NCBI RefSeq assembly: GCF_048403405.1
Contig: NZ_CP183129.1
Length of the DNA: 64,000 bases
Origin: Escherichia coli
GTDB taxonomy: Bacteria; Pseudomonadota; Gammaproteobacteria; Enterobacterales; Enterobacteriaceae
Reading direction: 5' to 3' (one strand)
A program made the position numbers. Of the stretch, positions 43,601-46,600 are shown in pieces; the first letter of the stretch is position 1, and each line of letters starts with the position of its first letter.

Positions 43601-46600
43601 TTCTAAATGCTGTTGCTGGCACAGATGGAAATAAAGTTACAACTAGCGCCGATGTTGGTTTTGGTACACCAGCCGCTGCTGTAACCTATACCTACAATAA
43701 AGACACTAATTCATATTCCGCCGCTTCTGATGATATTTCCAGCGCTAATCTGGCTGCTTTCCTCAATCCTCAGGCCGGAGATACGACTAAAGCTACAGTT
43801 ACAATTGGTGGCAAAGATCAAGATGTAAACATCGATAAATCCGGTAATTTAACTGCTGCTGATGATGGCGCAGTACTTTATATGGATGCTACCGGTAACT
43901 TAACTAAAAATAATGCTGGTGGTGATACACAAGCTACTTTGGCTAAACTTGCTACTGCTACTGGTGCTAAAGCCGCGACCATCCAAACTGATAAAGGAAC
44001 ATTCACCAGTGACGGTACAACGTTTGATGGTGCATCAATGTCCATTGATGCCAATACATTTGCAAATGCAGTAAAAAATGACACTTATACTGCCACTGTA
44101 GGTGCTAAGACTTATAGCGTAACAACAGGTTCTGCTGCTGCAGACACCGCTTATATGAGCAATGGGGTTCTCAGTGATACTCCGCCAACTTACTATGCAC
44201 AAGCTGATGGAAGTATCACAACTACTGAGGATGCGGCTGCCGGTAAACTGGTCTACAAAGGTTCCGATGGTAAGTTAACAACGGATACGACTAGCAAAGC
44301 AGAATCAACATCAGATCCGCTGGCAGCTCTTGACGACGCTATCAGCCAGATCGACAAATTCCGCTCCTCCCTCGGTGCCGTTCAAAACCGTCTGGATTCC
44401 GCAGTCACCAACCTGAACAACACCACTACCAACCTGTCCGAAGCGCAGTCCCGTATTCAGGACGCCGACTATGCGACCGAAGTGTCCAATATGTCGAAAG
44501 CGCAGATCATCCAGCAGGCAGGCAACTCCGTGCTGGCAAAAGCCAACCAGGTACCGCAGCAGGTTCTGTCTCTGCTGCAGGGTTAATCGCCTGAATGCCT
44601 CTCAAACCCCGCTCCGGCGGGGTTTTTTACAATTGGCTTTTTGCGTAACCCCCAAATAACCCCTCATTTCACCCACTAATCGTCCGATTAAAAACCCTGC
44701 AGAAACGGATAATCATGCCGATAACTCATATAACGCAGGGCTGTTTATCGTGAATTCACTCTATACCGCTGAAGGTGTAATGGATAAACACTCGCTGTGG
44801 CAGCGTTATGTCCCGCTGGTGCGTCACGAAGCATTGCGCCTGCAGGTTCGACTGCCCGCGAGCGTGGAACTTGACGATCTGCTACAGGCGGGCGGCATTG
44901 GGTTACTCAATGCCGTCGAACGCTATGACGCCCTACAAGGAACGGCATTTACAACTTACGCAGTGCAGCGTATCCGTGGCGCTATGCTGGATGAACTTCG
45001 CAGCCGTGACTGGGTGCCGCGCAGCGTGCGACGCAACGCGCGTGAAGTGGCACAGGCAATAGGGCAACTGGAGCAGGAACTTGGCCGCAACGCCACGGAA
45101 ACTGAGGTTGCGGAACGTTTAGGGATCGATATTGCCGATTATCGTCAAATGCTGCTCGACACCAATAACAGCCAGCTCTTCTCCTACGATGAGTGGCGCG
45201 AAGAGCATGGCGATAGCATTGAACTGGTTACTGATGATCATCAGCGAGAAAACCCGCTACAACAACTGCTGGACAGTAATCTGCGCCAGCGGGTGATGGA
45301 AGCTATCGAAACGTTGCCGGAGCGCGAAAAACTGGTATTAACCCTCTATTACCAGGAAGAGCTGAATCTCAAAGAGATTGGCGCGGTGCTGGAGGTCGGG
45401 GAATCGCGGGTCAGTCAGTTACACAGCCAGGCCATTAAACGGTTACGCACTAAACTGGGTAAGTTATAACGTCAGTAAATGCCGCACTTTAATTTTGACT
45501 ACCAGGAGTTCTTAATGATGGTGCAGCACCTGAAAAGACGGCCATTAAGCCGCTATCTTAAAGACTTTAAACACAGCCAGACCCATTGCGCGCATTGCCG
45601 TAAATTACTCGACCGCATTACCCTCGTTCGCGACGGCAAAATAGTGAATAAAATCGAGATTTCCCGCCTGGACATGCTGCTTGATGAAAATGGCTGGCAA
45701 GTGGAACAAAAATCATGGGCGGCATTGTGCCGATTCTGCGGTGATTTACATTGCAAAACGCAGAGTGATTTTTTCGATATTATCGGCTTTAAGCAATTTC
45801 TTTTTGAGCAAACTGAAATGAGCCCAGGTACGGTGCGTGAATATGTCGTTCGTCTGCGCCGTTTGGGTAATCATCTACACGAGCAAAATATTTCCCTCGA
45901 ACAGCTGCAGGACGGTTTCCTTGATGAAATCCTCGCCCCGTGGCTGCCCACCACCAGCACCAACAATTACCGCATTGCGTTACGGAAGTATCAACACTAT
46001 CAGCGTCAAACGTGTACCGGACTTGTGCAGAAATCCTCCAGCCTGCCTGCTTCTGATATATATTAAATAAGAATAAGATGTAGCGGAGTTGTTTTTGTGT
46101 TTACAAACAATGGCTCTACACTGCAAACAGACATAACAACATTAGGGGTGAATATGAAATTAGCACATCTGGGACGTCAGGCATTGATGGGTGTGATGGC
46201 CGTGGCGCTGGTTGCGGGCATGAGCGTTAAAAGTTTTGCAGATGAAGGTCTGCTTAATAAAGTCAAAGAGCGCGGCACGCTGCTGGTAGGGCTGGAAGGA
46301 ACTTATCCGCCGTTCAGTTTTCAGGGGGATGACGGCAAATTAACCGGTTTTGAAGTGGAATTTGCCCAACAGCTGGCAAAACATCTTGGCGTTGAGGCGT
46401 CACTAAAACCGACCAAATGGGACGGTATGCTGGCGTCGCTGGACTCTAAACGCATTGATGTGGTGATTAATCAGGTCACCATTTCTGACGAGCGCAAGAA
46501 AAAATACGATTTCTCTACCCCGTACACCATTTCCGGTATTCAGGCGCTGGTGAAAAAAGGTAACGAAGGCACCATTAAAACGGCTGATGATCTGAAAGGC

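What the first reader, a model, noticed from the sequence alone, without database searches (positions are those of the whole stretch)
44587..44749. fliC 3-prime UTR and fliA leader packed into 163 bp
The fliC stop is followed within 20 nt by a strong terminator and then, about 90 nt later, a perfect sigma-28 -10 element (GCCGATAA) for fliA. sigma-28-dependent sRNAs derived from flagellar mRNA UTRs have been described, including one from the fliC 3-prime UTR (FliX, recalled from the literature), so a processed sRNA may arise here.
Basis: partly seen in the sequence, partly recalled or inferred. Interest (0 to 1): 0.2.

Follow-up and report, generated by a model that had tools for sequence, protein, structure and literature searches.

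The report
Compact fliC–fliA spacer lacking FliX
This 163-bp gap in an E. coli genome holds the flagellin gene's terminator and the well-known double promoter of the flagellar sigma-factor gene fliA. It is a short version of the gap that lacks almost all of the published small RNA FliX, so it is an ordinary, already understood region.

Summary
fliC (42940-44586) ends with TAA. A 9-bp GC-rich hairpin with a T6 tract follows 17 nt later (44604-44628). GCCGATAA lies at 44717-44724, and fliA starts with GTG at 44750.

The window is E. coli with an H6-type flagellin. The fliA promoter 28-mer (44698-44725) is identical to the FliA ChIP-seq site in K-12. The 105 bp before fliA are identical in four E. 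coli lineages compared.

The sRNA idea does not hold for this allele. In K-12, FliX (b4827, 195 nt) fills a 320-bp spacer. It includes two REP elements and the seed UGUCAGCAACGUGC just before the terminator. The window lacks that 157-bp segment. Only 42 of 195 FliX positions align and 30 are identical, mostly in the terminator. The seed and REPs are absent.

About 65% of 5,426 complete E. coli genomes carry the long FliX form and about 35% carry the compact form. This exact variant occurs in 201 genomes.

The compact layout recurs in 43 non-E. coli records from 11 named genera. It has a ~41-nt 3'UTR and a near-invariant AAACCCCGC-N4-GCGGGGTTTTTT terminator. It is therefore the probable ancestral form, and FliX is an Escherichia-specific insertion.

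Verdict: known elements, in a natural allele without FliX. Low interest.

The parts
42837..42864 (+). fliC sigma-28 (class 3) promoter motif TAAAGGTTGTTTTACGACAGACGATAAC
   Evidence: Exact match to the K-12 FliA ChIP-seq motif for fliC (PMC4183435 Table 2). Any 3' fragment of this mRNA would therefore depend on sigma-28.
42940..44586 (+). fliC, H6-type flagellin (548 aa), stop codon TAA at 44584-44586
   Evidence: NCBIfam NF005953, 776 bits. It is 98.5% identical in amino acids and 97.2% in nucleotides to fliC of EPEC O127:H6 E2348/69.
44587..44628 (+). Compact 42-nt fliC 3'UTR: a 17-nt spacer UCGCCUGAAUGCCUCUC followed by the terminator
   Evidence: The same layout, with a median of 41 nt from stop codon to end of T tract, is seen in 47 compact-form sequences.
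44604..44628 (+). Rho-independent terminator of fliC: stem AAACCCCGC/GCGGGGTTT, loop TCCG, T6 tract at 44623-44628
   Evidence: Free energy -17.1 kcal/mol, z = -2.9. Found by the terminator scan. The stem core is nearly invariant across genera. One compensatory variant, CCCTGC/GCAGGG, occurs in Cedecea.
44629..44644 (+). Variable spacer ACAATTGGCTTTTTGC between the terminator and the conserved fliA control region
   Evidence: It differs from K-12, ST131 and O111:H8. It resembles the Citrobacter version ACATTTAGC-TTTACCC.
44645..44697 (+). Upstream half of the fliA control region, inferred to be the FlhD4C2 binding region of the class 2 (sigma-70) promoter
   Evidence: The 105 bp 44645-44749 are 100% identical in the window, K-12, ST131 and O111:H8 and strongly conserved across genera. 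The K-12 FlhDC ChIP-seq peak centre lies 24 bp upstream of the FliA motif centre, which is about 44687 here (PMC4183435). The exact site boundaries are inferred.
44698..44725 (+). fliA sigma-28 (class 3) promoter motif, with the -10 element GCCGATAA at 44717-44724. A candidate sigma-70 -10 element GATAAT at 44708-44713 overlaps it (inferred).
   Evidence: Identical to the K-12 FliA ChIP-seq motif for fliAYZ, which has a FAT score (their ChIP-seq enrichment score) of 91. The 19-mer GGATAATCATGCCGATAAC occurs in at least 120 species genomes.
44726..44749 (+). fliA leader. The sigma-28 transcription start is predicted near 44731-44733, which gives a 5'UTR of about 17-19 nt. Shine-Dalgarno AGGG is at 44737-44740.
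   Evidence: Read from the sequence. The start-site position is inferred from the usual spacing after a sigma-28 -10 element and was not measured.
44750..45469 (+). fliA (sigma-28), GTG start codon, 239 aa
   Evidence: NCBIfam NF005413, 363.5 bits. RefSeq annotation of identical DNA agrees.

Best explanation
The interval is the compact form of the fliC-fliA intergenic region, probably the ancestral one, in an E. coli strain with an H6-type flagellin.

Transcription of fliC starts at the sigma-28 promoter at 42837-42864 and stops at a strong intrinsic terminator 17 nt after the stop codon. This leaves a 3'UTR of about 42 nt. The terminator insulates the next unit from the very heavily transcribed flagellin gene.

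Sixteen variable bases follow, and then a 105-bp control region for fliAZ-tcyJ that is identical across the E. coli lineages compared. Upstream, FlhD4C2 recruits sigma-70 RNA polymerase (class 2). An overlapping sigma-28 promoter, with GCCGATAA at 44717-44724, lets FliA transcribe its own gene (class 3 autoregulation). A short leader with an AGGG ribosome-binding site precedes the GTG start codon.

This allele does not encode FliX. The 157-bp segment that makes up the FliX body in K-12 is not present. That segment holds two inverted REPs with their linker (a BIME) plus unique flanks, including the seed.

Shown here: positions, folding, sequence identity with experimentally mapped K-12 sites, absence of FliX sequence, and the distribution of the two forms.

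Inferred: the exact FlhDC site, the sigma-70 -10 element, the transcription start sites, terminator efficiency, and the direction of evolutionary change.
For: - Gene identities.
- Terminator.
- Promoter 28-mers identical to K-12 ChIP-seq sites. Dual FlhDC/FliA control of fliAZY is described in PMC4183435.
- K-12 annotates fliX at 2001912-2002106 within a 320-bp spacer. Alignments show a 157-bp gap in the window. Only 42 of 195 FliX positions align and 30 are identical.
- The FliX 5' ends and the seed/M1 site were taken from the authors' oligonucleotide list. The seed is absent from the locus; only three 3-mismatch hits occur elsewhere in the window, a chance-level count. There is no REP near the interval.
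- E. coli survey: the long form is in 3503 of 5426 genomes. This compact variant is in 201. The H4-like compact junction is in about 1006, including the window type. All 8 sampled genomes of the remaining class have spacers of 163-165 bp.
- Cross-genus comparison: 47 of 53 sequences with flagellin directly upstream of fliA have 116-132 nt between the stop codon and the promoter 19-mer; the window has 120. Their terminator is nearly invariant.
- Long forms occur only in E. coli and E. albertii, plus an unrelated insertion in two other species.
Against: - No RNA data exist for this strain, so terminator efficiency, start sites and the absence of a stable 3' fragment are not demonstrated.
The sample is biased toward lineages with that promoter.
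- The E. coli counts rest on megablast coverage thresholds and are approximate. The seed-only query gave 2808 genomes and the long query gave 3503.
- The direction of change is inferred from distribution, not from a tree. The E. albertii long form shows the insertion is old or was exchanged between species.
Confidence: 0.88

Rival explanations
1. Canonical FliX is made here. The fliC mRNA would be processed into an Hfq-bound sRNA of about 200 or 100 nt that represses fliC and S10-operon mRNAs through the published seed.
For: The locus is syntenic with K-12 fliX. The fliC sigma-28 promoter is intact. A terminator with a U tract, which could bind Hfq, is present.
Against: The 3'UTR is only 42 nt. 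The seed, both REPs and the FliX-S 5' end are all absent. The whole gap is shorter than FliX (163 bp against 195 nt).
Confidence: 0.02
2. A different 3'-end-derived sRNA arises from the compact form. RNase E would cut inside the fliC coding region and release a fragment made of the CDS 3' end plus the 42-nt UTR. The fragment would bind Hfq through the terminator and act like FliX using another seed.
For: The terminator and the length of the short UTR are unusually constant across 11 other genera. The eLife paper reports extra fliC-derived bands and RIL-seq chimeras at the fliC 3' end, and says FliX-like signal was seen in Salmonella RIL-seq. Many 3'UTR-derived sRNAs include the end of a CDS (general knowledge).
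Against: The 17-nt spacer is not conserved on its own. It falls into two families that follow the flagellin C-terminus type...QG* or ...R*. No seed-like conserved single-stranded motif was found. No RNA evidence exists. Conservation of the CDS end is explained by protein constraint, and conservation of the terminator by the need to terminate.
Confidence: 0.1
3. The short distance matters for regulation. Partial readthrough of the fliC terminator would feed sigma-28-driven transcription into fliA and add a positive feedback loop. Removing FliX and the REPs would change that coupling.
For: fliC is among the most strongly transcribed sigma-28 genes (expression value 2319 in PMC4183435 Table 2). 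Only 121 nt separate the terminator from the fliA start codon.
Against: The hairpin is strong (-17.1 kcal/mol) and has a T6 tract. Its near-invariance suggests selection for efficient termination. fliA already has its own sigma-28 promoter, so readthrough would be redundant. No co-transcription data were found.
Confidence: 0.08

Closest known systems
FliX sRNA of E. coli K-12 (gene fliX, b4827; Melamed et al. 2023, eLife 12:RP87151)
   Same: Same genomic slot: between the fliC stop codon and the fliC terminator, upstream of fliA. The parental mRNA is likewise sigma-28-dependent. The terminator hairpin is related (CCCCGCC-ACCG-GCGGGG in K-12, CCCCGC-TCCG-GCGGGG here).
   Different: K-12 FliX is 195 nt with two REPs and the seed UGUCAGCAACGUGC. 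The window has a 42-nt UTR with none of these. Only 30 of 195 positions are identical.
fliAZY complex class 2/3 promoter of E. coli K-12 (FlhD4C2 with sigma-70, plus sigma-28; Fitzgerald et al. 2014, PLoS Genet 10:e1004649)
   Same: The 105 bp upstream of fliA are 100% identical to K-12, including the 28-bp FliA ChIP-seq motif.
   Different: Nothing differs in sequence. Only the distance to the upstream gene differs (163 bp against 320 bp).
Compact fliC 3'UTR and terminator of other Enterobacteriaceae (Citrobacter, Enterobacter, Leclercia, Buttiauxella, Atlantibacter and others)
   Same: A UTR of about 41 nt, the terminator AAACCCCGC-N4-GCGGGGTTTTTT, and about 120 nt from the stop codon to the fliA promoter 19-mer. 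The window's terminator and downstream spacer are closest to the Citrobacter and Leclercia versions.
   Different: The 17-nt pre-hairpin spacer and the 16-nt post-terminator spacer vary between lineages.
REP/BIME elements, and the Rfam families derived from them (naRNA4 RF02564, ES036 RF02751)
   Same: These make up most of the K-12 FliX body. The K-12 query hit a median of 29 places per genome.
   Different: None is present in the window interval.
Other sigma-28-dependent UTR-derived sRNAs (FlgO from the flgL 3'UTR, UhpU from the uhpT 3'UTR, MotR from the motA 5'UTR)
   Different: No sequence relationship. Nothing here indicates a stable RNA beyond the terminator hairpin.

Membership tests
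FliX sRNA | Lies in the fliC 3'UTR and ends at the fliC intrinsic terminator | tested here: met
   The locus is syntenic with K-12 b4827. The terminator is at 44604-44628.
FliX sRNA | Sequence homology to the 195-nt FliX, including the two REP elements and the FliX-S 5' end (GAATTTGCACATTTTTGTAGGCCGG) | tested here: not met
   A 157-bp segment is absent. Of 195 positions, 42 align and 30 are identical. There is no REP in the interval.
FliX sRNA | Seed UGUCAGCAACGUGC immediately 5' of the terminator (the M1 mutation GCA->CGT abolishes pairing) | tested here: not met
   The seed was derived from the FliX-S and FliX-S-M1 gBlocks. It has no match at the locus. Only chance-level 3-mismatch hits occur elsewhere in the window.
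FliX sRNA | Sigma-28-dependent expression through the fliC promoter | tested here: met
   The fliC promoter 28-mer is identical to the K-12 ChIP-seq site. This is a sequence-level test only.
FliX sRNA | Discrete Hfq-bound RNA species of about 200 nt and about 100 nt | not testable with these tools
   This needs a northern blot or Hfq co-immunoprecipitation. A 200-nt species could only arise here by including about 150 nt of fliC coding sequence.
Rho-independent (intrinsic) terminator | GC-rich hairpin immediately followed by a U tract, downstream of a stop codon | tested here: met
   A 9-bp stem with 6 G-C pairs, a 4-nt loop and a T6 tract. Free energy -17.1 kcal/mol, z = -2.9. Conserved across genera.
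Sigma-28 (FliA) promoter | -10 element GCCGATAA | tested here: met
   Exact match at 44717-44724.
Sigma-28 (FliA) promoter | -35 element TAAAGTTT placed 11 nt upstream of the -10 element | tested here: inconclusive
   TGCAGAAA matches the consensus at 3 of 8 positions. However, the identical 28-mer is bound by FliA in vivo in K-12 (FAT score 91).
FlhD4C2-dependent class 2 promoter (fliAZY) | FlhDC-bound region upstream of a sigma-70 promoter | tested here: met
   Met by 100% identity with K-12 over 44645-44749. K-12 has a FlhDC ChIP-seq peak centred about 24 bp upstream of the FliA motif centre, and fliA expression falls from 1257 to 1 in the flhD and flhC deletion strains. The exact site and the -10 element are inferred.
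RsmY (Rfam RF00195) | Score at or above the family gathering threshold | tested here: not met
   18.5 bits against a threshold of 57, E = 0.39. Only the terminator hairpin is matched.

The most novel reading that the evidence does not exclude
The compact fliC 3' end, with its near-invariant 42-nt UTR, might itself give rise to a conserved Hfq-binding fragment that feeds back on flagellar or ribosomal mRNAs. Such a fragment would be made of the CDS tail plus the AAACCCCGC-N4-GCGGGGUUUUUU terminator. On this reading, the roughly 35% of E. coli genomes and the other enterobacterial genera that lack FliX would use an older, unrecognised analogue, and FliX would be a later REP-borne elaboration of it.
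Probability: 0.08. Interest if true: 0.45.

Novelty: already known. Interest (0 to 1): 0.15.

Why it matters
For the window itself it matters little. Every element (the fliC terminator, the FlhDC/sigma-70 promoter, the sigma-28 promoter and the fliA leader) is textbook and identical to mapped K-12 sites.

The useful by-product is a caution. FliX is characterised only in K-12 and was reported as detected in EPEC E2348/69, and both carry the long form. It is not a universal E. coli sRNA. About one third of complete genomes lack its body and seed, including ST131, O111:H8 and this H6 lineage. Outside Escherichia the locus is compact.

Annotation pipelines should therefore not transfer fliX by synteny. 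The two natural alleles also offer a ready-made comparison for testing what FliX contributes to flagellar number. Two H6 strains differ in this respect: EPEC has the long form and this lineage has the compact one.

Tried and rejected
- **Rfam scan of 40000-48000 at E<=1.** The only hit was a sub-threshold RsmY match to the terminator hairpin. I rejected it. Rfam 15 has no FliX family. On K-12 it reports only REP/BIME-derived families.
- **Sigma-70 consensus scan.** It found no promoter in the interval. This is expected for an activator-dependent class 2 promoter, so the sigma-70 -10 element GATAAT is given only as an inference.
- **Search for the FliX seed and for REP consensus in the window.** Nothing was found at the locus.
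- **Does FliX presence follow H type?** No. EPEC E2348/69 has an H6 flagellin 98.5% identical to the window's but carries the 320-bp FliX form. An O158:H23 genome carries the window-type UTR.
- **Literature searches for strain-level absence of FliX.** No paper in the searchable library mentions it.
- **Figure legend on conservation.** I tried to read the legend of eLife Figure 8-figure supplement 2. It is not held as text.
- **Not attempted.** I did not predict targets for the 17-nt spacer, because it is not conserved independently of the flagellin C-terminus type.
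Full report
**Observation.** The ORF 42940-44586 encodes a 548-aa FliC/FljB flagellin (NF005953, 776 bits). The ORF 44750-45469, with a GTG start codon, encodes sigma factor FliA (NF005413, 363 bits). fliZ follows, and fliD lies divergently upstream. The gap 44587-44749 is 163 bp.

Seventeen nucleotides after the TAA stop codon, a 9-bp hairpin forms: AAACCCCGC-TCCG-GCGGGGTTT at 44604-44625. It runs into a T6 tract at 44623-44628. Its free energy is -17.1 kcal/mol, z = -2.9, and 1 of 200 shuffles folds as well. The terminator scan also found it.

GCCGATAA sits at 44717-44724, 89 nt after the T tract. The octamer occurs 9 times in the window against 2.75 expected.

**Identity of the locus.** The 401 bp around the interval are 100% identical to many complete E. 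coli chromosomes. RefSeq annotates flagellin and fliA there.

The flagellin is H6-type. It is 98.5% identical in amino acids to fliC of EPEC O127:H6 E2348/69. Only 6 of the 46 nucleotide differences fall in the central region. The rest cluster in the conserved 5' and 3' parts, which gives a recombination-mosaic pattern.

**Comparison with published FliX.** Melamed et al. 2023 (PMC10578931) describe FliX as a sigma-28-dependent, Hfq-bound RNA of about 200 nt processed from the fliC 3'UTR. A form of about 100 nt, FliX-S, contains one of the REP sequences downstream of fliC.

RefSeq annotates fliX (b4827) in MG1655 at 2001912-2002106. It is 195 nt, begins 3 nt after the fliC stop codon, and ends at the terminator inside a 320-bp fliC-fliA spacer.

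The authors' oligonucleotide table gives three landmarks:
- the FliX 5' end, TTGTAACCTGATTAAC...;
- the FliX-S 5' end, GAATTTGCACATTTTTGTAGGCCGG;
- the seed, through the M1 mutation, in which ...TTTGTCAGCAACGTGCTT becomes ...TTTGTCACGTACGTGCTT immediately 5' of the terminator.

Aligning the window with K-12 shows one 157-bp block missing from the window. The block covers both REPs, their linker, the FliX-S start and the seed. Only 42 of the 195 FliX positions have an aligned base and 30 are identical, essentially the terminator. The seed has no match at the locus, and no REP lies nearby. Rfam 15 has no FliX model; in K-12 it detects only REP/BIME-derived families. This allele therefore cannot make FliX.

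**Distribution within E. coli.** Counts are out of 5,426 complete genomes.
- A K-12 query spanning the long spacer is covered at 80% or more in 3,503 genomes.
- The seed region alone is covered in 2,808. This is a lower bound because megablast needs a long exact word.
- The window's exact compact variant is in 201 genomes, including an O158:H23 strain.
- An ST131/H4-type compact junction is in about 1,006, which includes the window type at about 81% identity.
- In the remaining class, only the terminator and the sequence after it match K-12. All eight sampled members have spacers of 163-165 bp: ST131, O111:H8 and six others.

So roughly 65% of genomes carry the long FliX form and roughly 35% are compact. 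EPEC E2348/69 has the long form. This agrees with the eLife remark that FliX was detected in EPEC RIL-seq. The form does not follow H type or phylogroup. Both forms occur with H6 flagellins, and both occur in strains I recall as phylogroup B2 (ST131 and E2348/69; that assignment is from my own knowledge, not a tool result).

**Distribution outside E. coli.** The 19-mer GGATAATCATGCCGATAAC from the fliA promoter has exact matches in at least 120 species-representative genomes of Enterobacteriaceae and Erwiniaceae.

Flagellin lies directly upstream of fliA in 53 sequences, counting the references. In 47 of them the distance from the stop codon to the 19-mer is 116-132 nt; the window has 120. These include 43 non-E. 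coli records from 11 named genera: Citrobacter, Enterobacter, Leclercia, Lelliottia, Buttiauxella, Atlantibacter, Superficieibacter, Cedecea, Silvania, Pluralibacter and Dryocola.

Their 3'UTR is stereotyped. The median distance from stop codon to end of T tract is 41 nt. The hairpin has a median free energy of -16.9 kcal/mol and a nearly invariant core, AAACCCCGC/GCGGGGTTT. There are occasional G-U variants and one compensatory variant, CCCTGC/GCAGGG.

Long forms are limited to two groups. The first is E. coli and E. albertii, where the E. albertii version has the same BIME and TTGTCAGCAAC but a degenerate terminator. The second is an unrelated insertion of about 165 nt between duplicated terminators in Enterobacter sp. 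R1 and Cedecea sulfonylureivorans.

The simplest reading is that the compact form is ancestral and FliX arose by an Escherichia-specific insertion. That insertion then segregated in E. coli along with recombining fliC cassettes. This direction is an inference from distribution.

**The fliA side.** From 44645 to the start codon, the window, K-12, ST131 and O111:H8 are identical, and the region is highly conserved across genera.

Fitzgerald et al. 2014 (PMC4183435) list the FliA ChIP-seq motif for fliAYZ as TGCAGAAACGGATAATCATGCCGATAAC, with a FAT score (their ChIP-seq enrichment score) of 91. This is exactly 44698-44725. They also report a FlhDC peak 24 bp further upstream, about 44687 in the window. 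fliA expression falls from 1257 to 1 in the flhD and flhC deletion strains and to 15 in the fliA deletion strain. They confirm fliAZY as a complex class 2/3 promoter in which most transcription comes from the FlhDC/sigma-70 promoter.

The -35 half of the sigma-28 motif is weak, 3 of 8 against TAAAGTTT. GATAAT at 44708-44713 is a plausible sigma-70 -10 element. The start sites near 44720 and 44732 and the AGGG ribosome-binding site at 44737-44740 are my inferences.

**Mechanism.**
1. Sigma-28 RNA polymerase starts at 42837-42864, which is identical to the K-12 fliC promoter.
2. It transcribes fliC and terminates at 44628.
3. The terminator shields the fliA control region from this very strong transcription.
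4. FlhD4C2 with sigma-70, and later sigma-28, start fliAZ-tcyJ transcription.
5. No FliX-type feedback on fliC or S10-operon mRNAs can come from this allele.

**Rival explanations.**
- Canonical FliX is excluded by sequence (about 0.02).
- A different fragment made of the CDS tail plus the short UTR and bound by Hfq is possible but unsupported (about 0.1). The pre-hairpin spacer is not conserved independently of the flagellin C-terminus type.
- Terminator readthrough that couples fliC to fliA is possible (about 0.08). The strength and conservation of the terminator argue against it.

**Novelty and interest.** The added value is showing that this allele lacks FliX and that FliX is a lineage-variable, Escherichia-specific insertion. 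I found no paper in the searchable library that states this. It is a modest population-genomic observation, not a new kind of element.

Noticed in passing
L016:1440-1760 (Enterobacter sp. R1) and L023:7590-7900 (Cedecea sulfonylureivorans), approximate: An independent insertion of about 165 nt sits between fliC and fliA, flanked by two copies of the fliC terminator. The first copy has only 4 U, the second has 6-7 U. In L016 the insert begins ACATTGTCAGCAAAG, which shares TTGTCAGCAA with the FliX seed. This could be a convergent extended 3'UTR or sRNA, or it could be chance.
   Followed up: partly
L008:880-1200 (Escherichia albertii NBRC 107761): E. albertii carries the long BIME-containing fliC 3' region with TTGTCAGCAAC. 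However, its fliC has an in-frame TAG 12 codons before the normal stop codon, and its terminator lacks a U tract (CCCCGTTGCAGCGGGGATTTACC). This looks like decay of the flagellin locus.
   Followed up: partly
window 42940-44586 compared with L005:1021-2667: The window's H6-type fliC differs from EPEC E2348/69 fliC at 46 nucleotide positions. Thirty lie at nt 138-534 and ten at nt 1434-1593, in the conserved ends. Only 6 lie in the serotype-determining centre. The pattern suggests recombination breakpoints inside the conserved fliC ends, with the 3' flank and UTR exchanged separately from the antigenic core.
   Followed up: partly
window 44604-44644 compared with L006, L083, L088, L125 (Citrobacter): The window's terminator and the spacer after it (…GGGGTTTTTTACAATTGGCTTTTTGCGTAAC) are closer to Citrobacter (…ACATTTAGC-TTTACCCGTAAC) than to other E. 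coli compact alleles (…CTGCCCGCAATTTACCGGTAAC). This points to an old polymorphism or to exchange between genera at the fliC 3' flank.
   Followed up: no
L089, L090 (MAG 'Collinsella sp.'); L046, L062, L091, L098, L107: Genome records labelled Collinsella, Dysgonamonadaceae, Lactiplantibacillus, Bacteroidia, Alcaligenaceae and Chryseobacterium carry the enterobacterial fliA promoter 19-mer. The Collinsella MAG has both a long and a compact E. coli-type fliC-fliA spacer. This probably reflects contamination of those assemblies by Enterobacteriaceae.
   Followed up: no
window 6576, 19172(-), 26980(-), 37121, 42718(-), 45780(-), 47099(-), 60550: GCCGATAA is over-represented in the window (9 copies against 2.75 expected). 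The copy at 42718-42725(-) lies upstream of fliD and fits the known fliDST sigma-28 promoter. The others, including two antisense copies inside fliZ and tcyJ, were not examined. They may be intragenic FliA sites of the kind Fitzgerald et al. describe.
   Followed up: no
L001:1413-1607 (K-12 fliX): The unique sequences on either side of the BIME in K-12 FliX contain an imperfect direct repeat: GACGGCAACGCC upstream and GTCAGCAACGTGC, the seed, downstream. The seed may therefore have arisen through a duplication linked to the insertion. This is speculative.
   Followed up: no
L027:3760-4190 (Escherichia sp. ESNIH1) and many Pantoea/Erwinia/Kosakonia loci: In many genomes that have the conserved fliA promoter, no flagellin gene lies directly upstream. 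The fliC-fliA adjacency is therefore not universal, even where the promoter 19-mer is invariant.
   Followed up: no
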